Shown here piece after piece: positions 3,933-13,345 of a stretch of DNA of 15,149 nt (position 1 is the first letter of the stretch; the number at the start of each line of letters is the position of its first letter). Source of the stretch: Planctomycetota bacterium. GTDB lineage: Bacteria; Planctomycetota; Phycisphaerae; Sedimentisphaerales; Anaerohalosphaeraceae. The position numbers and the translations under genes are program-made. Location of the stretch: contig JBDLJN010000064.1 in assembly GCA_039714335.1 (NCBI GenBank), positions 1 through 15,149 on the forward strand, in the 5' to 3' direction. A model generated the notes under the pieces. That model was not told the origin of the DNA and made no database searches. It saw only the letters and a list, made by a program, of their open reading frames with translations.

Positions 3933-4481
3933 ATGCATGTGCAAACGCATCTACTTTCCGGATGGTGTTTAGGCAATTTGTTTGGGTTGGGCAAACGAGG
4001 CAGATCGCTTGCTGTTCTTGCGGCGGGATTGCCTGATATCGATGGTTTAGGTATTATCTTTGGGCCGGTTGCTTACTGGCGGTATCACCATGTAATTTGT
4101 CACAATTTATTGTTTGGCATCTTTCTCTGTACAATACTGACTTTTTTCAGCGAACAGAAAAAACGGGCATTTACAGCATTTTTTGTTATCTTCCACCTGC
4201 ATCTTGTGATGGATTCGTTCGGTTCGGGTGAGGACTGGGTGATCTATTACTTGTGGCCATTTATAAAACAGCCCGTTGAAAATCCTTACGTCTGGTCATT
4301 TTTCTCATGGCAGAATATTACCACGGCGATTATATTTGTTCTTTGGATGATTGGATTGGTGTTTTACGCCAAGCGTACCTTTCTGGAGTGGGTCATGCCA
4401 AAACTGGATCGACAGATCGTGGAGTTGGCGGAAATATTGAAACGCAAATTCAGGGAAATACTAAGTACAATCAAGCAGTAA
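3933..4481 (+). CDS. Membrane-bound metal-dependent hydrolase, YdjM/DUF457-like
   Basis: The 182-aa polytopic protein has an N-terminal H.QTHLL.G motif, a PDIDG motif and conserved His residues (HH, H.H) typical of the YdjM family. GGAG lies about 9 nt upstream of the ATG. Confidence 0.6.
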   Translation: MHVQTHLLSGWCLGNLFGLGKRGRSLAVLAAGLPDIDGLGIIFGPVAYWRYHHVICHNLLFGIFLCTILTFFSEQKKRAFTAFFVIFHLHLVMDSFGSGEDWVIYYLWPFIKQPVENPYVWSFFSWQNITTAIIFVLWMIGLVFYAKRTFLEWVMPKLDRQIVELAEILKRKFREILSTIKQ

Positions 4482-4511
4482 GGTTAATTTTTGGATTTTA
4501 TATTGCGGGTA

Positions 4512-4539
4512 TTTGTGGTACGATTATCGACAGTATAAT
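4512..4539 (+). promoter_or_regulatory. Weak candidate promoter for the lipid module
   Basis: There is a perfect TATAAT at 4534-4539. The -35 is poor: TTTGTG at 4512-4517 with a 16-nt spacer. Confidence 0.25.
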
Positions 4540-4587
4540 GCTATTATGATTGTCCATTCCAGAAAATCTAATTGAAAGGAATGTTCT

Positions 4588-5247
4588 TTGAATGAAGAAA
4601 TAACAGATCGCAGGCCTCTTAAGACTCGCAGTGCCAAGTGGGCATCGATACTGGCTTTAAGGTTGGTCAAGCTGGGGGTCAAGCCGAATTTCATTTCACT
4701 GTTGAGTATTGTATTCGCGTTATTATCTGGACTCAGCTTTGGATTATCTGCTCTCTCTGACTCATGGAAGAAGAGTGTTTTCCTTATTCTTGGAGCAGCT
4801 TTTATACAATTGCGTCTTTTATGTAACATGCTTGATGGAATGGTTGCTATTGAAGGAGGTATGAAATCTAAAACCGGTGAAATTTATAACGATTTCCCAG
4901 ACCGTATTGCAGATATGGTTATTCTAATCGGATTCGGTTATGCAGCGAATGAATTAAATTTTGCCGTGGAACTTGGCTGGTTGGCTGCGATACTTTCGGT
5001 ATTAACCGCTTATGTAAGATACTTAGGCACTGCGACAGGAGCCGGAAGTTTTTTTTACGGCCCAATGGCAAAACAGCATCGCATGGCTGTGGCAACGATA
5101 ACATCGCTGCTACAGGGAATTCTCTATTTTTGGCAAGAGTCGCTATGTGTATTGTATGCAGGATTGGTTATTATTGTATTGGGATGTCTTGTGACAGTTT
5201 TGAGACGGATTGTTAAGATCGTCCGTGTTTTGGAGAGGATGCCATAG
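4588..5247 (+). CDS. CDP-alcohol phosphatidyltransferase family protein (small, YnbA-like)
   Basis: The 219-aa polytopic protein contains NMLDGMVAIEGGMKSKTGEIYNDFPDRIAD. This is a recognisable variant of the D-G-x2-A-R...G-x3-D-x3-D motif, with Ile in place of the Arg. The start is TTG, with AAAGGA 8 nt upstream. Confidence 0.8.
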   Translation: MNEEITDRRPLKTRSAKWASILALRLVKLGVKPNFISLLSIVFALLSGLSFGLSALSDSWKKSVFLILGAAFIQLRLLCNMLDGMVAIEGGMKSKTGEIYNDFPDRIADMVILIGFGYAANELNFAVELGWLAAILSVLTAYVRYLGTATGAGSFFYGPMAKQHRMAVATITSLLQGILYFWQESLCVLYAGLVIIVLGCLVTVLRRIVKIVRVLERMP

Positions 5248-5876
5248 TGGCCGGACTTATTGCGAAAATTATATTATATTTTTGTCGTTTAATTTCCGGT
5301 GTCCAAGTGGAAATAAAGGATGCAGAATTAATTAATGGCACATTAATATTTTATGGCAATCACAGCAGTCACTTGGACTCAATGGTTATTCTTTCACTTT
5401 TGCCGAAAGAGCTAAGAGAAAAAACATTTATTGTTGGCTCTAAAAAATACTGGCAAGCTAATGCGGTACGCAGGTATGTTTCAAATCGGGTGTTTAAAAC
5501 GATGCTGATTGATCGCTCAGGCGAAGGAAATGAAGCAGGAGCATTTGCAGCGATATCCAATATGTCGAATATATTGTCGGAAGGTAATTGTATTATCATT
5601 TTCCCAGAAGGTACACGTAGCTTGGATGAGGGGGTTTCTAATTTTAAGGGGGGGATATATCATCTGGCGAAAAAAAACAACGATGTTAAGCTTGTTCCAA
5701 TCTTTTTAGAGAACATGAATAGAATCATGCCAAAGGGCGAATTGATTGTTATTCCACTATTGGGACGGGCAGTGTTTGGTAATCCAATAAAGTTGACCGA
5801 AGATGAGGGCAAAGAGGAATTTTTAATCCGGGCAAGAAATGAACTTGCTGCTTTAGGGAGAAACGATCTTGGATAA
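5247..5876 (+). CDS. 1-acyl-sn-glycerol-3-phosphate (lysophospholipid) acyltransferase, PlsC family
   Basis: The 209-aa protein has the HX4D box GNHSSHLD and the FPEGTRS box. Its GTG start overlaps the upstream TAG by 1 nt (TAGTG). GGAGAGGA lies 7 nt upstream. Confidence 0.85.
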   Translation: MAGLIAKIILYFCRLISGVQVEIKDAELINGTLIFYGNHSSHLDSMVILSLLPKELREKTFIVGSKKYWQANAVRRYVSNRVFKTMLIDRSGEGNEAGAFAAISNMSNILSEGNCIIIFPEGTRSLDEGVSNFKGGIYHLAKKNNDVKLVPIFLENMNRIMPKGELIVIPLLGRAVFGNPIKLTEDEGKEEFLIRARNELAALGRNDLG

Positions 5877-6807
5877 CGAAATAAAATATTTATTCGGCGG
5901 TATTTTGTCACTTCTTACTATTGCTTCAGTGATAGGTTTTTTGTTGGCGAGAAAATATAAAGATTCGTCTGCAAAACATGTTATCGATAATCTTAACGCA
6001 CGGACAAAAGCATGGTGGCAGATGTGTGCAGTGTTTGCGGTGTCCTTATTAATTGGCAAGACTGGCTCGGTCATACTTTTTTGCATTATGAGCTTTTTGG
6101 CACTGCGGGAGTTTATAACTCTGACGCCAACAAAAAAAGGAGACCACAAGACGCTGTTCTGGCTGTTTTTTGTAATCCTGCCTTATCAATATTACCTGGT
6201 CTATACAAAGTGGTACGGAATGTTTGCCATCATGATACCCGTATATGCGTTTTTGTTGATTCCTCTCCGCAGTGCTCTGGCAGGAGATACGAATAATTTT
6301 CTTGAGCGAACAGCAAAAATTCAATGGGGTGCTGTGGTTTGTGTCTATTGCGTGAGTCATGCACCCGCATTGCTGATTCTGGATATTCCAAATTATAGCG
6401 GAGAGAATGTAAAGTTGTTGCTCTTTTTGGCTATTATTGTTCAAATGAGTGATGTGTTGCAATATGTATTTGGCAAGACACTCGGTAAACATAAGGTTGT
6501 ACCGAATGTTAGTCCCAATAAAACATGGGAGGGGTTGATTGGTGGAGTGGTCTTTGCTTCACTGATCGGCATGGGGCTTTGGTGGAGTACGCCCTTTTCT
6601 CCATTAGCAGCATTAGCGATTTCTCTGGTGATAACGATGATGGGGTTTGCCGGTGGTTTGGTAATGTCTGCGATAAAGCGAGACCGTGGAATTAAAGATT
6701 TTGGTAATATCATACAGGGCCATGGTGGAATAATGGATAGGATTGATTCGTTATGTTTTTCTGCGCCTGTATTTTTCCACATAGTCAGGTATTATTATAC
6801 AGGATAA
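5869..6807 (+). CDS. cdsA: Phosphatidate cytidylyltransferase (CDP-diglyceride synthase family; possibly a YnbB-like paralog)
   Basis: The 312-aa polytopic protein has the CdsA signature SAIKRDRGIKDFGNIIQGHGGIMDRID and SPNKTWEG. Its TTG start overlaps the upstream gene by 8 nt. AGGGAG lies 8 nt upstream. Confidence 0.88.
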   Translation: MDNEIKYLFGGILSLLTIASVIGFLLARKYKDSSAKHVIDNLNARTKAWWQMCAVFAVSLLIGKTGSVILFCIMSFLALREFITLTPTKKGDHKTLFWLFFVILPYQYYLVYTKWYGMFAIMIPVYAFLLIPLRSALAGDTNNFLERTAKIQWGAVVCVYCVSHAPALLILDIPNYSGENVKLLLFLAIIVQMSDVLQYVFGKTLGKHKVVPNVSPNKTWEGLIGGVVFASLIGMGLWWSTPFSPLAALAISLVITMMGFAGGLVMSAIKRDRGIKDFGNIIQGHGGIMDRIDSLCFSAPVFFHIVRYYYTG

Positions 6808-9631: not shown

Positions 9632-9661
9632 TTGAGTTTCTGGATGGAGATATTGTATAAT
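9632..9661 (+). promoter_or_regulatory. Candidate promoter for the HAP2-like gene
   Basis: TTGAGT (9632-9637), an 18-nt spacer, then TATAAT (9656-9661). This predicts a leader of about 90 nt. Confidence 0.4.
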
Positions 9662-9760
9662 TATTCAAGGGTTAGGGCTGAAAGCGACGATTATTAGAGG
9701 GCAAATAACACTTTTATTCAAATTGCAGAGCCGCCGGTGCGTCTGTGGTCAGGAGAGTCT

Positions 9761-11644
9761 ATGTATCAGAAGAAGAATTTGAAGGTCCAAGCCGTATGTT
9801 CCATGTTCATCGCTGCCGTTTTGTTCGGCGTCTGTCTGTCAACGGCGCAGGCAACCCGCGTCTCAACCGCTGTAATTGAGGACTGTCTGATCAATGAAAG
9901 CGGCTTTAATTGTGACGAGAAAACCTGTATTTCAGCCGATGTCTCCTATGGCATACAGACGCAACTCGAGGTCGTGCAGATAACGACCATTCAGGTTGGC
10001 GGTGAACCCGTAGAGGTTGAAGAAACAACAGAAATCGAGATTGAAAAATCGATTCCGACCCTGTATTATCCGCTGCGGTTTTTGCATACCGTCGCCTATT
10101 ATCCCCACGAAGAAGTCATCCGTACACCCCATCCGATCAGCGGCTGTGACTGCCAGTGTGCCGATCCGAACTTTCAGGGTTTTTGCAGTACCAGAAGTCC
10201 GTTTGACCTGGAGAATCTCTGTGCCTCGTGGCGGGGTGAGGAGTTGATCGGTCAGCCGGCCACAACGGCTGTACCGTATGCGACAGCACACTGCCTGCAT
10301 ATGGGAGAAGTGTATTTTCACGGTTATGAGATCTGTGGGCCGACGGAATATTACGAGATTGCCGCTAATTTGCAAAAGGGTAGTGACACACTTAATTTTG
10401 TCCTCAGCCCGGCCGATCCATTTTACGGTATTAATCAAGCCAGCGGCTTCAAAGTCAAGGCCGAGCTTTTGGGCAACCAGGAAAAGTACAAAGGCGTTCC
10501 GGAGTTGAGCAATTACATCCTCTATATCCCGGCGCTCCCTGAAGCACACCCCTATGTTCAGGACTATCAGAACAACATGCTGATTCTTCCTCGAGAAGAA
10601 CTGTCTAAAGACGGCTCTGAACCGGATAAGGTGGGCATCAGCTACGATGCGTTCCGCAAACTGGGCGGCAACGCCAGCGTCTCCGAAGCCGGTGACGGCC
10701 TGCATAACCAGCTTTTTCAAAAACACAGTGCCGATCTGCAGAAGTTGATTATGAACCCGGATGCTGAAACCGAATACCTGGTTCACGGCAAGCGGAAATT
10801 CAAAGAATCAATGGGTTTCCAGGCGGGGATGGCAAAAGTACTGCAGTACAAGGTCCCCGAGATCAACTATTCACAGGTGGCTTTGACCCTGCCGGATGTA
10901 ACGACCGTTAAAGTCATCAACACCGAATCGCTGGGGATTATCATGGATGCTGATGTCCAGGCGTTTACCTCCATGACGGACGAGGGAACATTAGTTGTCG
11001 AGATAGCGAATTGGGGTGATCTGAAAACCGATTATGTCGTGACGGTAACCCAAGCGAACATGAACATCATCAAGGCCATTCCCGCCCAGTCAAGAATCCT
11101 GGACTCATATGAACAAGCGACTCTGACCTTCGACATCCATACCGCGTACAATATTGATACGATCAACGAATGTGCTGTCCGGCTCAAGTCGCCTACCGGC
11201 CGCTTATATGATGAGGTTTCCGTCAAATTTGATGCCTCCAAACACCCCTCAAAGTACTCGGGGGATTTGCAGCTAACCAATGATGCCGCGACGCTGACCG
11301 AGCCCAACAACCTCACCGCTCCGGTGATCACCCTGAACGGGCCGGAGTTGATCCTGCTGGAGTGCAATGTTGATACCTATGTCGAACAGGGCGCTGAAGC
11401 TGTGGACGATGTGGACGGTACCGTTGCTGTGATTATTGGTGGTGACACCGTCGATACGACCGTGTGCGGTATCTATACCGTCAAGTACTTCGCGCGGGAT
11501 GCGGTGTTTAATTTCTCGGAGATCACACGCACGGTGAAGGTCGTTTGCCCGGGCTCCGGGATCGAAGGCGACATCAACAATGACAACATGGTGAACATGG
11601 ATGACCTTGGCAGACTCGCCGCCAACTGGCTCGTCGGAACCTAA
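9761..11644 (+). CDS. Secreted HAP2/GCS1-like (fusexin-like) protein with C-terminal Ig-like (DUF5011-type) domain and dockerin-like tail
   Basis: I prefer the ATG at 9761 (AGGAG 9751-9755) over the track's GTG at 9737. A Sec signal peptide is present: MYQKKNLKVQAVCSMFIAAVLFGVCLSTAQA. Roughly nt 9869-11236 is collinear with HAP2 ectodomain motif blocks (AHCL, LLG..YxxxP...YLxIP, KxGxSYxAF, LHNQL, domain III-like N.G strand). Nt 11315-11548 (PVITLNGPE...YTVKYFARD...) looks like a DUF5011/Ig-like domain. Nt 11564-11641 (GDINNDNMVNMDDLGRLAANW) looks like a dockerin-type repeat. There is no C-terminal TM segment. Confidence 0.7.
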   Translation: MYQKKNLKVQAVCSMFIAAVLFGVCLSTAQATRVSTAVIEDCLINESGFNCDEKTCISADVSYGIQTQLEVVQITTIQVGGEPVEVEETTEIEIEKSIPTLYYPLRFLHTVAYYPHEEVIRTPHPISGCDCQCADPNFQGFCSTRSPFDLENLCASWRGEELIGQPATTAVPYATAHCLHMGEVYFHGYEICGPTEYYEIAANLQKGSDTLNFVLSPADPFYGINQASGFKVKAELLGNQEKYKGVPELSNYILYIPALPEAHPYVQDYQNNMLILPREELSKDGSEPDKVGISYDAFRKLGGNASVSEAGDGLHNQLFQKHSADLQKLIMNPDAETEYLVHGKRKFKESMGFQAGMAKVLQYKVPEINYSQVALTLPDVTTVKVINTESLGIIMDADVQAFTSMTDEGTLVVEIANWGDLKTDYVVTVTQANMNIIKAIPAQSRILDSYEQATLTFDIHTAYNIDTINECAVRLKSPTGRLYDEVSVKFDASKHPSKYSGDLQLTNDAATLTEPNNLTAPVITLNGPELILLECNVDTYVEQGAEAVDDVDGTVAVIIGGDTVDTTVCGIYTVKYFARDAVFNFSEITRTVKVVCPGSGIEGDINNDNMVNMDDLGRLAANWLVGT

Positions 11645-11663
11645 AGAACAATGATATCACAGC

Positions 11664-11701
11664 GGCACGGCCAGGTTCCGCCTGACCGTGCCATTTTATT
11701 T
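11664..11701 (+). terminator. Rho-independent terminator of the HAP2-like gene
   Basis: GGCACGG-c-CAGG / ttccg / CCTG-a-CCGTGCC forms a 7+4 bp stem with one mismatch. It is followed by ATTTTATTT. Confidence 0.6.
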
Positions 11702-11770: not shown

Positions 11771-13345
11771 TTACAGCGAGACGCCGGTAAGCCAGTTTTC
11801 TGCAAGGACGGAAAGGTCCTGAATATCCACAAAACCATCCACCATTGTTTCGGGAGCCATGTCGGCATAAGGATTCCAGTTAATGGATTGACCATCAGAC
11901 ATCCATGCTTGGCTAAATGCCACAAAATCGATCAAATCCACTGTGAAGTCTCGAAGTTCCGGGGCGATGTCGCCTGGTACCGCGGGGCCGATATGTTGGA
12001 CTTGCAATGTAGGGCTTGCATAGTCCCCTTTTAAAACCATATTGTATTCATTAAAAAGATTCATCCCGATGATCCCGTCTAATGTGCCTCCTTCAGGAGA
12101 AGCTACATCTAACAGGATGACAGGGATATTTGTGTACTGGAGCCACTGCCCCAGAGCAGGAATGTCCAGAGAGTCAATATAGAACCCCGGTGCAACAGTG
12201 GTTTCGCCGGTGACGCCAATAATGTCAACTTCAAATTCAGGGTTTTCCGGATCAAATCCAAGCAGGGAACCTACATTTGAACCGACCACAGTAACCTGGG
12301 CGCCTGTATCCAGCATGAATCGATCCTGCTGTGTTGCTGAATAGCCATCGTCGTATAAAGAGACGCTGTTGACAAAAAATAAGCTTTGGGCGGAAGCTCC
12401 CATGATGATTGAGGGTGTGCCGGGTTGATAGATTAATTCGTTCATGAGCAACTCAAGATCTGGGATATACTGAATATCGCTTGAGCCCAGCGGGATTAGA
12501 TTCAACGGAATTTCAATCGAATAATCGGGAATCTGGGGATCGCCCGGTTCATAAAAATCAACGCATGGTCCGGTGTAAGTTTCGCCGGCATATTTACACC
12601 ACAGTTTCCGGTCATTTGAAATCACTGTTGTCAAATTAACTGTCATTGGGGCGCCGATGGCATTCGGCAGATCGGGAGCATTGGGTTCCGGCATGTCCCC
12701 CACGGAAACGGAAACATTGCCGAGTCCTACCATATTGGATACATCCAGCACCCAGTCATTAGGATCATTGAGACTGTTAGGATCAAGTGCTTGCAGACCG
12801 TCAATAAATAATCCCAGCGGCTGACTGACCCAGGTAAAAACAGAACCGCTGACGCCCTGAATTTCCGTTACGGCCTGCGTCAGTGTTTCGTCGGAGTGTG
12901 CGTAGATCCCGGTAATGTTGCTGGCCTGATAACTAAGCACGGTCGCGCTGGCACCAGTATCGAGAAGACCAACGGCATAATTGCTCAAAGGGCTGGATGT
13001 GTAGTAGTCTCCGACGACAGACAAATGAGGTACGGCGGAGGGTTCAAACTCCCCGTTGCGATCATCGGTTACAGTAAAGATTATCCACGGCACGAAGCCG
13101 TCCACCGGGGGTGAGTCGATGACATTGGAATAAACCGGTTCTGCGGCTTCTGCTTGTGCGGCGAGTTCCTGCGGTGCCGGTTGCGGCGTGTCTTTCTCGA
13201 AATAGCGGATTTCCTTGATCTTCGACCCGGACGGTCCTTGCCAGTTGACGGTTTCGGCCCAGCCCCAGGCCTGCAGTCCCGCCGCCAGCAGTACCCCCGT
13301 GTGAAGCATTAAAAACGCATGACCAAATCTTTTATGGTATTTCAT
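11771..13345 (-). CDS. Secreted bilobal (pseudo-dimeric retropepsin/pepsin-like) aspartic protease with dockerin-like C-terminal repeats
   Basis: I prefer the ATG at 13345 (MKYHKRFGHAFLMLHTGVLLAAGLQAWG signal-like N-terminus, AAGGA upstream) over the track's TTG at 13396. There are two catalytic-type motifs: LLDTGASATVL (D at 12961-12959) and FMLDTGAQVTVVG (D at 12310-12308). LDGIIGMNLF occurs in the second lobe. The C-terminus (11774-11971) carries DFTVDLIDFVAFSQAW and DGFVDIQDLSVLAENW repeats. Confidence 0.7.
   Translation of the reverse strand: MKYHKRFGHAFLMLHTGVLLAAGLQAWGWAETVNWQGPSGSKIKEIRYFEKDTPQPAPQELAAQAEAAEPVYSNVIDSPPVDGFVPWIIFTVTDDRNGEFEPSAVPHLSVVGDYYTSSPLSNYAVGLLDTGASATVLSYQASNITGIYAHSDETLTQAVTEIQGVSGSVFTWVSQPLGLFIDGLQALDPNSLNDPNDWVLDVSNMVGLGNVSVSVGDMPEPNAPDLPNAIGAPMTVNLTTVISNDRKLWCKYAGETYTGPCVDFYEPGDPQIPDYSIEIPLNLIPLGSSDIQYIPDLELLMNELIYQPGTPSIIMGASAQSLFFVNSVSLYDDGYSATQQDRFMLDTGAQVTVVGSNVGSLLGFDPENPEFEVDIIGVTGETTVAPGFYIDSLDIPALGQWLQYTNIPVILLDVASPEGGTLDGIIGMNLFNEYNMVLKGDYASPTLQVQHIGPAVPGDIAPELRDFTVDLIDFVAFSQAWMSDGQSINWNPYADMAPETMVDGFVDIQDLSVLAENWLTGVSL

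What the first reader, a model, noticed from the sequence alone, without database searches (positions are those of the whole stretch)
11315..11644. The HAP2-like ectodomain has no transmembrane anchor; an Ig-like domain plus a dockerin-like tail takes its place
Eukaryotic HAP2 and archaeal Fsx1 are membrane-anchored through C-terminal TM segments, which matters for fusogen function. Here the ORF ends with a DUF5011-like Ig module (PVITLNGPELILLECNVDTYVEQGAEAVDDVDG...YTVKYFARD) followed by GDINNDNMVNMDDLGRLAANWLVGT. No hydrophobic stretch follows the signal peptide.

There are three readings.
- The protein is displayed non-covalently on a cohesin-like or other surface partner.
- It is a secreted membrane-inserting factor or adhesin directed at another cell, such as a host, prey or kin.
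- The fold has been co-opted for a non-fusion role.
Basis: partly seen in the sequence, partly recalled or inferred. Interest (0 to 1): 0.7.

Follow-up and report, generated by a model that had tools for sequence, protein, structure and literature searches.

The report
Anchorless bacterial HAP2 with dockerin-type tail
A planctomycete bacterium encodes a clear relative of HAP2, the protein that fuses eukaryotic gametes, but it is an exported, soluble version whose membrane anchor is missing and whose C-terminus instead carries an Ig-like domain and one calcium-binding dockerin-type repeat; about 120 bacterial relatives lack the anchor too and none appears in the papers I could search.

Summary
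Window 9761-11644 (+) encodes a 627-aa protein with four parts:
- a cleavable-looking signal peptide;
- a full HAP2/GCS1 ectodomain (Pfam PF10699, 168 bits; AlphaFold2 model matches Chlamydomonas and Arabidopsis HAP2, TM-score 0.73-0.80);
- an Ig-like domain (PF16403);
- a 25-residue tail made of a 12-residue DxNxDxxVNxxD loop plus an amphipathic helix.

No transmembrane segment, canonical lipobox or known sorting domain is present. The stop codon is real.

This is a property of the family. Of 126 related proteins retrieved, mostly from Planctomycetota/Phycisphaerae MAGs, 124 have no anchor. Their C-termini are modular: 44 carry one or two dockerin-type repeats, and 22 simply end after domain III. 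The two anchored relatives sit on AT-rich contigs of unknown origin. They have a eukaryote-type transmembrane segment and basic tail.

A profile of the tails ranks solved type I dockerins first. The adjacent secreted peptidase carries the same kind of tail.

Most likely this is an exported HAP2 ectodomain held non-covalently at the cell surface, which engages a target through its domain II tip. Function is inferred, not shown. I rate it a new variant of a known kind, of high interest.

The parts
9632..9661 (+). Promoter-like site (TTGAGT, 18 nt spacer, TATAAT) about 100 nt upstream of the start codon
   Evidence: Consensus scan, 10 of 12 matches. This is a pattern match only.
9761..11644 (+). 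Coding sequence of the 627-aa anchorless HAP2/GCS1-family protein (GenBank MEN8127457.1). The ORF listing gives an alternative GTG start at 9737.
9761..9853 (+). Signal peptide, aa 1-31. Hydrophobic core at aa 11-29 and an A-Q-A|T signal peptidase I-type site. No canonical lipobox.
   Evidence: Hydropathy. Lipobox pattern and conserved AxA-type sites across the family.
9908..11248 (+). HAP2-GCS1 ectodomain (class II fusion-protein fold, domains I-III), aa 50-496
   Evidence: Pfam, 168 bits. PDB sequence hits to HAP2. AlphaFold2 model, pLDDT 86. Foldseek top hits are HAP2 structures, E down to 8e-35.
10184..10294 (+). Domain II tip (cd connection), aa 142-178: C142...C154-A-S-W157-R158-G-E-E-L162-I163-G...H177-C178. 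R158 aligns with the conserved salt-bridge Arg (TcHAP2 R176). Its partner E117 lies at 10109-10111.
   Evidence: Alignments. Residue mapping from PMC6089408.
11228..11290 (+). Family-specific motif after domain III, at the start of the stem: FDASKHPSKYSGDLQLTNDAA (family consensus FDTxKHxSKYSWELQxKNEAS)
   Evidence: The two transmembrane-anchored relatives also have it.
11327..11542 (+). Bacterial surface Ig-like domain (PF16403), aa 523-594
   Evidence: Pfam E 2.3e-10, 40.8 bits against a cut-off of 27. Beta strands in the model. dN/dS 0.08 against the orthologue.
11567..11641 (+). Single dockerin-type repeat, aa 603-627. Ca2+-loop-like D604-x-N606-x-D608-x-x-V611-N612-x-x-D615, then an amphipathic helix L616...W623-L624. 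The stop codon is at 11642-11644.
   Evidence: Direct reading. Helix 613-624 in the model. A profile of such tails ranks type I dockerins first. No Pfam hit for this tail alone.
11664..11701 (+). Terminator-like hairpin (11664-11692) followed by AUUUUAUUU, between the two convergent genes
   Evidence: RNA fold -22.9 kcal/mol, z = -3.25, 0 of 200 shuffles as stable
11774..11983 (-). C-terminal two-repeat dockerin-type module of the neighbouring secreted retropepsin-like peptidase (gene 11771-13345, minus strand). It shows that the same tail type is used by an unrelated exported protein next door.
   Evidence: Motif scan. Pfam Asp_protease_2 E 1e-11. Dockerin_1 E 0.2 on the tail.

Best explanation
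**What it is.** The gene encodes a Sec-exported, soluble member of the HAP2/GCS1 (fusexin, class II fusion protein) family. It has no transmembrane segment or cytoplasmic tail. After domain III and the start of the stem, where anchored relatives enter the membrane, it carries an Ig-like spacer and one dockerin-type Ca2+-binding repeat.

**How I think it works.**
1. The signal peptide is cleaved and the cysteine-rich ectodomain folds outside the cytoplasm.
2. The C-terminal repeat has an amphipathic helix that would be exposed in a single repeat. It pairs, probably in a Ca2+-dependent way, with a partner. The partner could be a cohesin-like or other surface scaffold, or the same repeat from sister subunits. 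This holds the protein at the cell surface non-covalently.
3. The domain II tip points outward. It keeps the conserved Glu117-Arg158 pair, with W157, L162 and I163 beside it. It binds a target membrane or surface. Trimerisation is likely, as recombinant soluble HAP2 ectodomains do on liposomes.

**Shown here (computationally).** Architecture, fold, absence of an anchor, the nature and distribution of the tail, purifying selection, and the family-wide pattern.

**Inferred.** Export beyond the periplasm, the existence of a tether partner, membrane binding and trimerisation.
For: - **HAP2 identity.** Pfam 168 bits. The family profile hits T. cruzi, Chlamydomonas, Arabidopsis and Cyanidioschyzon HAP2 at E 1e-51 to 2e-32. 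The AlphaFold2 model has pLDDT 86. Foldseek gives TM-scores of 0.73-0.80 to post-fusion HAP2 protomers.
- **Conserved tip.** E117 is invariant in 72 of 72 sequences. R158 is invariant in all 57 that keep the loop. These align to CrHAP2 E126 and TcHAP2 R176.
- **No anchor.**
- **Real stop and selection on the Ig domain and tail.**
- **Family pattern.** 124 of 126 are anchorless. 44 carry dockerin-type tails at this position.
- **Dockerin type.** Loop positions 1, 3, 5, 8, 9 and 12 match by direct reading. The two-repeat tails of P0037 and P0032 reach Pfam Dockerin_1 at 22.8 and 18.7 bits. The profile of two-repeat tails hits solved dockerins at E 3e-13 to 5e-5. A profile of W-type single repeats alone still puts dockerins in 9 of its top 10 hits, best E 8e-4.
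- **Same tail on unrelated exported proteins.** It occurs on the adjacent peptidase and on a 521-aa protein two genes downstream of the HAP2-like gene in another genome.
- **Literature.** Soluble HAP2 ectodomain inserts into liposomes and trimerises (PMC5332557). GPI-anchored AtHAP2 and Fsx1 still fuse cells, so a tether other than a transmembrane segment can suffice (PMC9259645). A cohesin/dockerin surface complex has been hypothesised for Phycisphaerae (PMC6461901).
- **Collagen variants.** Some relatives carry an N-terminal collagen triple helix. This fits a trimeric, stalk-mounted head.
Against: - No cohesin-like partner was found or could be searched for, because the source genome is not available.
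- The window's tail gives no Pfam hit by itself. A single repeat cannot form the canonical two-repeat dockerin fold.
- 22 relatives have no C-terminal module at all. Tethering is therefore not essential to the family.
- The domain II tip is eroded. This protein and its nearest relatives lack the near-invariant PTCGW...SQGFC hairpin. They also have Leu at the position of the conserved CrHAP2 Q379.
- A 19-member subgroup has deleted the whole cd loop, including the Arg. Membrane insertion may therefore not be the conserved activity.
- How a Sec substrate would cross the outer membrane is unknown.
- No conserved neighbouring gene points to a partner.
Confidence: 0.4

Rival explanations
1. It is a freely released factor. 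The protein is secreted and acts at a distance. Its domain II tip inserts into the membrane of another cell (eukaryotic host, prey or competitor), where it acts as an adhesin or membrane-perturbing agent. The tail serves oligomerisation, matrix binding or export rather than tethering to the producer.
For: - Soluble HAP2 ectodomains insert into liposomes on their own.
- 22 relatives have no C-terminal module.
- One carrier is a MAG labelled as a gutless-worm (Olavius) symbiont.
- The closest anchored relatives have a eukaryote-type architecture, which suggests contact with eukaryotes.
Against: - The Ig domain and tail are under purifying selection. Dockerin-type modules are classically tethering devices.
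- The tip is reduced in this protein.
- No toxin-like or host-targeting domain is present.
Confidence: 0.2
2. The class II fold has been co-opted for a role that involves neither fusion nor membranes. Examples are a structural or adhesive component of the cell envelope or extracellular matrix, or a protein or glycan binder. It would be mounted like other exported planctomycete proteins through interchangeable modules.
For: - The cd loop is deleted in 19 relatives. The PTCGW hairpin and the Q379 equivalent are lost here.
- The crown group has lost both Cys residues of the ij-loop region.
- Partner modules are typical of matrix and adhesion proteins: Ig, collagen, TSP3, PKD-like, MopE.
- The gene lies among ordinary housekeeping and glycan-degradation genes. 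No mobile-element or sex-related context is present.
Against: - E117 and R158 are strictly conserved. An aromatic residue at 157 (W, F or Y in 56 of 57) is kept at the exposed tip wherever the loop exists. This is what is expected if the tip is still a functional contact surface.
- Identity is high (40-55%) across all three domains, including domain III, which drives the fold-back.
Confidence: 0.25
3. It is a periplasmic protein that remodels the producer's own membranes from the exoplasmic side, for example the invaginated cytoplasmic membrane of planctomycetes. It never leaves the cell.
For: - Only a Sec signal is visible, and no outer-membrane export signal is recognised.
- The periplasmic face is topologically equivalent to the face on which fusexins act (own reasoning).
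Against: - The accessory modules (PF16403 surface Ig, dockerin-type, collagen, TSP3) are those of extracellular proteins.
- The family also occurs in Desulfobacterota, Nitrospirota and Spirochaetota MAGs, which lack such endomembranes.
Confidence: 0.07
4. An anchor exists but was missed. It could be an uncleaved N-terminal signal anchor, a non-canonical lipobox at Cys25, or an assembly error that hides a C-terminal transmembrane segment.
For: - Cys25 sits near the end of the hydrophobic core.
- A related subgroup has good lipobox-like strings (GALGC, AVLAC).
- Two relatives do have a transmembrane segment.
- Only crude predictors were available.
Against: - V at position -1 violates the lipobox rule. 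A-Q-A|T is a standard cleavage site, conserved in kind across the family.
- The stop codon is followed by a terminator hairpin and no open frame.
- Four orthologues from independent assemblies end at the same residue.
- About 120 independent sequences agree.
Confidence: 0.05

Closest known systems
Eukaryotic HAP2/GCS1 gamete fusogen (Pfam PF10699; structures 5MF1, 6DBS, 6E18, 5OW3, 5OW4, 7S0K)
   Same: - Clear sequence membership: 168 bits here, and the family profile reaches E 1e-51 to T. cruzi HAP2.
- Predicted three-domain class II fold, TM-score 0.73-0.80 to post-fusion protomers.
- Conserved Glu-Arg pair at the domain II tip.
- N-terminal signal peptide and a cysteine-rich ectodomain.
   Different: - No transmembrane segment and no basic cytoplasmic tail. 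These are part of the common architecture of all described orthologues and are needed in Arabidopsis (PMC2841615).
- The host is a bacterium.
- The cd connection is very short, the PTCGW hairpin is missing, and Leu replaces the Q379 equivalent.
- An Ig-like domain and a dockerin-type repeat are added.
- About 24% identity to T. cruzi and Chlamydomonas HAP2.
Two transmembrane-anchored metagenomic relatives (P0133, P0170; JGI contigs of 1.2 and 1.7 kb, GC 28-30%)
   Same: - 53% and 43% identity to the window protein over 257 aligned columns.
- Same motif after domain III (SKYSWE.Q..NK.S).
   Different: - They continue into GSCDCAFFDI.CKFIKFCWLD, a strong transmembrane helix, a Cys-rich stretch and a Lys/His-rich tail. 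This is the eukaryote-type HAP2 C-terminus.
- They keep two Cys residues of the ij-loop region.
- The organism is unknown, and both are fragments.
Archaeal Fusexin1 (Fsx1, 7P4L; PMC9259645)
   Same: It is a fusexin encoded by a prokaryote with the class II fold. Foldseek E 5e-16.
   Different: - Fsx1 has 1-4 transmembrane segments, an extra domain IV and a six-helix bundle, and lies in integrated mobile elements.
- No sequence similarity is detectable: Fsx1 is absent. Identity is 13% and TM-score 0.48.
- The window gene sits among housekeeping genes.
Type I dockerin modules of cellulosomal and other secreted proteins (PF00404; e.g. 2VN5_B, 4FL4_A, 2Y3N_B, 8X39)
   Same: - A 12-residue Ca2+-binding-type loop with D/N at positions 1, 3, 5, 9 and 12 and V at 8, followed by a helix.
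- C-terminal position on exported proteins.
- Profile-level similarity.
   Different: - One repeat instead of the duplicated pair.
- A conserved Trp in the helix (NWL/CWL).
- No Pfam hit for this copy.
- No cohesin partner known.
Hypothetical 'planctosome' of Phycisphaerae (Nemodlikiaceae; PMC6461901)
   Same: It proposes that exported planctomycete proteins, notably peptidases, are mounted on the outer surface through cohesin-dockerin pairs. Here a secreted peptidase and the HAP2-like protein sit side by side, both with dockerin-type tails.
   Different: The planctosome is itself only a genomic hypothesis. No cohesin was seen in this window or in the flanks of related loci.
Viral class II fusion proteins (flavivirus E, alphavirus E1, bunyavirus Gc)
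   Same: Same fold class. Foldseek E 1e-9 to 1e-15.
   Different: - 8-14% identity.
- They are transmembrane-anchored and need companion proteins and a trigger.
- No relative was found on viral contigs.

Membership tests
HAP2/GCS1 (PF10699) | Match to the Pfam HAP2-GCS1 profile above the gathering score | tested here: met
   168.4 bits against a cut-off of 27.4, aa 50-496, profile positions 3-471 of 515
HAP2/GCS1 (PF10699) | Three-domain class II fusion-protein fold | tested here: met
   AlphaFold2 model, pLDDT 86, pTM 0.74. Foldseek top hits 6DBS, 6E18, 5OW3 and 5MF1, E 8e-35 to 1e-29, target-normalised TM-score 0.73-0.80. This is a predicted structure, not a solved one.
HAP2/GCS1 (PF10699) | Conserved Glu (strand b) and Arg (cd connection) salt bridge that organises the domain II tip | tested here: met
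   E117 is invariant (72/72) and aligns to CrHAP2 E126 and TcHAP2 E121. R158 is invariant in all 57 sequences with the loop and aligns to TcHAP2 R176. The pairing itself was not inspected in 3D.
HAP2/GCS1 (PF10699) | Non-polar membrane-insertion motif (fusion loops or helix) at the domain II tip | tested here: inconclusive
   The cd connection is short, with F147, L149, L152, W157, L162 and I163. W157...L162-I163-G aligns with CrHAP2 W193...L200-I201-G. However, the PTCGW hairpin is deleted here, and 19 relatives lack the loop altogether. Exposure was not measured.
HAP2/GCS1 (PF10699) | Single-pass C-terminal transmembrane segment followed by a positively charged cytoplasmic tail (PMC2841615) | tested here: not met
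   No hydrophobic segment after the signal peptide (maximum Kyte-Doolittle 19-residue score 1.22). The protein ends in LVGT. The same holds for 124 of 126 relatives.
HAP2/GCS1 (PF10699) | Trimerisation and membrane-fusion activity | not testable with these tools
   Needs biochemistry or cell-fusion assays
Archaeal Fsx1 | Sequence relationship to Fsx1, 1-4 transmembrane segments, and location in integrated mobile elements | tested here: not met
   7P4L is absent from the sequence searches. Foldseek gives only 13% identity and TM-score 0.48. No transmembrane segment. Neighbours are hflX, cdsA, plsC and pyruvate kinase. Domain IV was not assessed.
Type I dockerin (PF00404) | Match to the Pfam Dockerin_1 profile above the gathering score | tested here: not met
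   No hit for the window tail, even at E 10. Relatives P0037 and P0032 reach 22.8 and 18.7 bits against a cut-off of 22.9. The neighbour's tail gives E 0.2.
Type I dockerin (PF00404) | Ca2+-binding loop with D/N at positions 1, 3, 5, 9 and 12, followed by a helix | tested here: met
   D604, N606, D608, (V611), N612, D615, then helix 613-624. Tail profiles rank solved dockerins first. Ca2+ binding itself was not tested.
Type I dockerin (PF00404) | Duplicated repeat (two loop-helix units forming one module) | tested here: not met
   Only one repeat is present in the window protein and in 34 relatives. Ten relatives and the neighbouring peptidase have two.
Type I dockerin (PF00404) | A cognate cohesin partner | not testable with these tools
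   The source genome is not available. No cohesin was listed among the Pfam hits of genes flanking related loci.
Bacterial surface Ig-like domain (PF16403) | Profile match above the gathering score | tested here: met
   40.8 bits against a cut-off of 27, full-length match 1-71 of 71
Bacterial lipoprotein | Lipobox [LVI][ASTVI][GAS]C at the end of the signal peptide | tested here: not met
   The sequence is L-F-G-V-C25, with V at position -1, so the pattern does not match. An AxA site follows. A subgroup of relatives does match the pattern.

The most novel reading that the evidence does not exclude
This would be the first bacterial fusexin system: a class II fusogen that works without an integral anchor. 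The dockerin-type repeat would hold the ectodomain on the producer's outer surface or on vesicles through a non-covalent, Ca2+-dependent tether. Fold-back of domain III would then pull that surface onto a target membrane in which the tip has inserted. The result would be outer-membrane or vesicle fusion, or bacterium-eukaryote membrane merger. The family would have arisen by gene exchange with a microbial eukaryote whose anchored HAP2 is still about 50% identical.
Probability: 0.12. Interest if true: 0.95.

Novelty: new variant of a known kind. Interest (0 to 1): 0.76.

Why it matters
HAP2 is regarded as the ancestral eukaryotic gamete fusogen. Its origin (viral, archaeal or eukaryotic) is an open question. 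So far the only prokaryotic relatives described are archaeal Fsx1 proteins, which are membrane-anchored and not similar in sequence.

This family is different in three ways:
- It is bacterial.
- It is recognisable by plain sequence search as true HAP2.
- It is systematically anchorless, with swappable extracellular modules.

If the proteins still bind membranes, they offer a natural experiment on how much of class II fusion needs an integral anchor. If they do not, they show a fusogen fold recruited for another surface function.

Two anchored relatives at about 50% identity, with eukaryote-type C-termini, make a case of inter-domain transfer testable.

On the practical side, GenBank names this protein only 'immunoglobulin-like domain-containing protein'. 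The family is therefore easy to overlook.

Tried and rejected
1. **Stop codon as an error.** Rejected. No frame continues, a terminator hairpin follows, and orthologues end at the same residue.
2. **Hidden lipid anchor or known sorting signal.** None found: no lipobox match and no NCBIfam hit.
3. **Tail as a vestige of the ancestral pre-transmembrane stem.**
   - For: BLASTP of P0170 against P0028 and P0051 extends to a shared CWL. Pfam's HAP2 profile covers both segments.
   - Against: an HMM of the tails alone scores the pre-transmembrane segments at 1.3 and -2.8 bits. For the 1.3-bit segment, 803 of 10,000 shuffles score at least as well.
   - Verdict: not supported on its own. Kept as unexplained.
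4. **Conserved operon partner.** None. All-against-all BLAST of ORFs in 15 loci shows no shared neighbour. Close orthologues lie in different neighbourhoods.
5. **Viral origin.** No relative on IMG/VR contigs. BFVD gives only distant bunyavirus-like Gc.
6. **Search for longer contigs of the anchored relatives.** The first metagenome scan found nothing. The second found only two intron-split, eukaryote-like fragments.
7. **Full-length search of the 50%-identity representatives.** It was swamped by giant Ig-repeat proteins, because the query included the Ig domain. It was useful only because it surfaced P0133 and P0170.
8. **Other dead ends.** The afdb50 fold library was unavailable. A Biopython neighbour-joining bootstrap timed out and was replaced by a distance bootstrap. 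The window protein is not on record in the contig index, so the source assembly could not be retrieved.
9. **Literature.** No paper in the searchable library combines HAP2 or fusexin with Planctomycetes, or uses 'bacterial HAP2' or 'bacterial fusexin'.
Full report
**The gene.** The window is bacterial. Pfam identifies HflX, a HAMP-SpoIIE phosphatase, YdjM, a CDP-alcohol phosphatidyltransferase, a PlsC-type acyltransferase, CdsA, a nitroreductase, pyruvate kinase and a STAS protein. Between pyruvate kinase and a convergent gene lies an ORF at 9737/9761-11644 on the plus strand. The ATG at 9761 follows GGAGAG and gives MYQKKNLK..., like the N-termini of homologues. A promoter-like site lies at 9632-9661. 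A stable hairpin at 11664-11692 followed by AUUUUAUUU lies 20 nt after the stop (z = -3.25). The gene is therefore probably its own transcription unit. Its product is identical to GenBank MEN8127457.1, 'MAG: immunoglobulin-like domain-containing protein [Planctomycetota bacterium]'.

**Check of the observation.** The quoted peptides are present.
- Pfam gives HAP2-GCS1 (PF10699) over aa 50-496 at E 3e-49, 168 bits against a gathering score of 27.4.
- Pfam gives Bact_surface_Ig-like (PF16403) over aa 523-594 at E 2e-10.
- The only Kyte-Doolittle 19-residue window above 1.6 is the signal peptide (aa 11-29). The next best is 1.22, in the Ig domain.
- The signal peptide ends in A-Q-A|T. Cys25 is preceded by L-F-G-V, which fails the lipobox rule.
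- NCBIfam, which holds the models for PEP-CTERM, type IX secretion and similar sorting tails, returns nothing.
- No frame stays open past the stop.
- The 75%-identical orthologue P0002, and P0007 and P0008, end at the same residue.
- Against P0002 the gene shows dN/dS of about 0.14 overall and 0.08 for the Ig domain. For the tail, pN is 0.20 against pS 0.83 (dS is near saturation, so the ratios are approximate).

The limit is that dedicated predictors could not be run.

**Is it really HAP2?** Yes, by sequence and by predicted fold.
- phmmer against PDB sequences finds T. cruzi, Arabidopsis, Chlamydomonas and Cyanidioschyzon HAP2 (E 3e-16 to 8e-5).
- A profile of 72 family members raises this to E 1e-51 to 2e-32.
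- Archaeal Fsx1 is not found by either search.
- An AlphaFold2 model built on the family alignment has pLDDT 86 and pTM 0.74.
- Foldseek ranks HAP2 structures first (E 8e-35 to 1e-29, target-normalised TM-score 0.73-0.80). Cyanidioschyzon HAP2 (7S0K, described in its paper as a prefusion monomer) scores 0.48, Fsx1 scores 0.48 with 13% identity, and viral class II proteins come after.
- BFVD gives only distant bunyavirus-like Gc.

The Glu-Arg pair that organises the domain II tip in all HAP2 structures is kept. In published structures it is CrHAP2 E126-R185, AtHAP2 E117-R163 and TcHAP2 E121-R176 (PMC6089408). Here E117 is invariant in 72 of 72 sequences. R158 is invariant in all 57 sequences that have the loop, and it aligns with TcHAP2 R176.

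The tip itself is reduced.
- The cd connection is only C142...C154-A-S-W157-R158-G-E-E-L162-I163-G...H177-C178.
- This protein and its nearest relatives lack the near-invariant PTCGW...SQGFC hairpin.
- The position aligned to the conserved CrHAP2 Q379 is Leu.

**The family.** Two word-indexed searches and one exhaustive search returned 126 HAP2-domain proteins.
- Where a source gives a name, it is mostly Planctomycetota, Phycisphaerae or Anaerohalosphaera. A few are named Thermodesulfobacteriota or Nitrospira.
- A scan of one genome per GTDB species found only nine loci, all in MAGs. They are Planctomycetota (Sedimentisphaerales, Anaerohalosphaeraceae, Phycisphaerae), two Desulfobacterota (one labelled as an Olavius worm associate), a Nitrospira and a Spirochaetales bin.
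- All complete members have a signal peptide.
- 124 of 126 have no hydrophobic segment beyond it.

After a family-specific motif at the end of domain III (FDTxKHxSKYSWELQxKNEAS) the C-termini differ:

| C-terminal architecture | Members |
|---|---|
| One dockerin-type repeat directly after the motif | 30 |
| Ig domain plus one repeat (the window type) | 4 |
| Two dockerin-type repeats | 10 |
| Cys-containing NHGxYV-type tail, some with TSP3 repeats | 8 |
| Ig repeats or other long ends | 15 |
| Stop within 30 residues of the motif | 22 |
| Other C-terminal forms | 4 |
| Transmembrane segment after the motif | 2 |
| No motif found, or truncated | 31 |

The Desulfobacterota and Nitrospira copies belong to the group that stops early. 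Their ORFs end well inside their contigs. Some members carry an N-terminal collagen triple helix, or MopE or PKD-like modules. Nineteen have deleted the entire cd loop, including the Arg. Flanking genes are not conserved, even between close orthologues. The gene's GC3 (0.62) lies within the range of its neighbours.

**The tail.** Read directly, D604-I-N606-N-D608-N-M-V611-N612-M-D-D615 has D/N at positions 1, 3, 5, 9 and 12 and Val at 8. This is the EF-hand-like loop of a dockerin repeat. The model then makes a helix at 613-624.

Pfam does not recognise this copy, but the position is occupied by recognisable dockerins in relatives:
- P0037 and P0032 reach Dockerin_1 at 22.8 and 18.7 bits against a cut-off of 22.9.
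- A profile of the two-repeat tails hits solved dockerin modules at E 3e-13 (8X39), 9e-6 (2Y3N_B) and 5e-5 (2VN5_B), ahead of calmodulins.
- A profile built only from the Trp-containing single repeats, leaving out the two canonical tails, still ranks dockerins in nine of its top ten hits, best E 8e-4.

'Dockerin-like' is therefore justified at the level of the repeat. The module here is half a dockerin.

The same tail type ends unrelated exported proteins:
- the convergent neighbour at 11771-13345 (minus strand), a secreted protein with two retropepsin-like halves and two such repeats;
- a 521-aa protein of unknown family two genes downstream of the HAP2-like gene in another MAG.

A cohesin/dockerin surface complex carrying peptidases has been hypothesised, not shown, for Phycisphaerae (PMC6461901).

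**Anchored relatives.** Two proteins from the exhaustive search do have an anchor: P0133 and P0170.
- After the same stem motif they continue with GSCDCAFFDI.CKFIKFCWLD, a helix with a Kyte-Doolittle score of 3.7, a Cys-rich stretch and a Lys/His-rich tail. This is the architecture described for eukaryotic HAP2 (PMC2841615).
- They lie on contigs of 1.2 and 1.7 kb with GC 28-30% and GC3 12-18%. Both are N-terminally truncated, and the organism is unknown.
- Over 257 aligned columns they are 53% and 43% identical to the window protein. T. cruzi and Chlamydomonas HAP2 are 24% identical.
- A search seeded with them returns, apart from three weak hits (28-30% identity, P0255-P0257), only members of the anchorless bacterial family.
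- P0133's ectodomain is closer to anchorless members than to P0170 in 1000 of 1000 bootstraps, although their transmembrane modules are about 90% identical. The order of events is therefore unresolved.
- These two proteins, and the deeper-branching anchorless members, keep Cys residues of the ij-loop region that the planctomycete crown group has lost.

My reading is that the bacterial family and a eukaryote-type anchored lineage exchanged this gene, and that the bacterial copies lost the anchor. This is inference.

**What it probably does.** Three published results frame the options.
- Monomeric soluble HAP2 ectodomain inserts into liposomes and trimerises without its anchor (PMC5332557).
- GPI-anchored AtHAP2 and Fsx1 still fuse cells, so the specific transmembrane segment is dispensable (PMC9259645).
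- In plants, the region C-terminal to the transmembrane segment is needed in vivo (PMC2841615).

An exported ectodomain that keeps the tip-organising Glu-Arg pair and an aromatic residue beside it is most simply a surface-mounted membrane or surface-binding head. This is reinforced by a tethering-type module placed exactly where the stem would enter the membrane. I give that 0.40.

The rivals are:
- a freely released membrane-binding factor (0.20);
- a fold co-opted for a non-membrane role (0.25), which the erosion of the tip and the loop-less subgroup make a serious contender;
- a periplasmic membrane-remodelling role (0.07);
- a missed anchor (0.05).

**Novelty.** GenBank already labels one relative 'HAP2/GCS1 family protein' (MDH4241266.1), so the domain hit is in databases. 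I found no paper that describes bacterial HAP2 homologues or their lack of an anchor. The Fsx1 paper mentions bacterial bin assignments only for Fsx1 and treats them with caution. The library does not cover subscription journals, so this absence is not proof. I rate the finding a new variant of a known kind: a true HAP2-family member that fails the family's architectural hallmark (transmembrane segment plus basic tail), sits in a new host domain, and carries new accessory modules.

Noticed in passing
window 11771-13345 (-): The convergent neighbour is a secreted protein with two retropepsin-like aspartic-protease halves (two DTG motifs; Pfam Asp_protease_2, E 1e-11). It has a two-repeat dockerin-type C-terminus of the same kind as the HAP2-like protein's tail.
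   Followed up: partly
window ~4000-6800: A block of low GC content (38-41%; GC3 0.35-0.41) with strongly positive GC skew holds three phospholipid-synthesis genes: a CDP-alcohol phosphatidyltransferase, a PlsC-type acyltransferase and CdsA. The rest of the window is at 50-58% GC. The cause is unknown.
   Followed up: no
L015 1-1712 and L016 1-1190 (proteins P0170, P0133): Two AT-rich metagenomic fragments encode HAP2 proteins 43-53% identical to the window protein. Both have a strong transmembrane helix, a Cys-rich stretch and a Lys/His-rich tail. Their transmembrane modules are about 90% identical to each other, but their ectodomains are only about 50% identical. The organism is unknown.
   Followed up: partly
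family alignment A1, columns of window aa 124-186 (proteins P0032, P0034, P0036-P0043, P0045, P0061, P0069, P0072, P0075 and others): A subgroup of 19 relatives has deleted the whole cd connection of domain II (fusion loops and the conserved Arg). SQGFC is joined almost directly to AHCL.
   Followed up: partly
proteins P0047, P0079, P0082, P0229: These relatives have an N-terminal collagen triple-helix region before the HAP2 ectodomain, with DUF7467 as well in P0079. They have no C-terminal module. This suggests a constitutively trimeric, stalk-mounted form.
   Followed up: no
L005 10001-11626 and 11730-13595 (Thermodesulfobacteriota MAG): Two HAP2-like paralogues lie in tandem, the second with MopE-type Cys-rich repeats. 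An 862-aa thrombospondin type 3 repeat protein lies just upstream.
   Followed up: no
proteins P0063, P0064, P0066, P0076, P0078 (N-termini): The subgroup with two-repeat tails has lipobox-like strings (GALGC, AVLAC) at the end of the signal peptide. These members may be lipoproteins, unlike the window protein.
   Followed up: no
L003 13055-14620: An unrelated 521-aa secreted protein with no Pfam match lies two genes downstream of another HAP2-like gene. It ends in the same tail type (DLDHNCRVDFLDVNLMARNWL).
   Followed up: partly
window 9761-11644; GenBank MEN8127457.1: The public annotation names the protein only 'immunoglobulin-like domain-containing protein', although the HAP2-GCS1 match is far stronger than the Ig match. 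A relative (MDH4241266.1) is named 'HAP2/GCS1 family protein'.
   Followed up: yes
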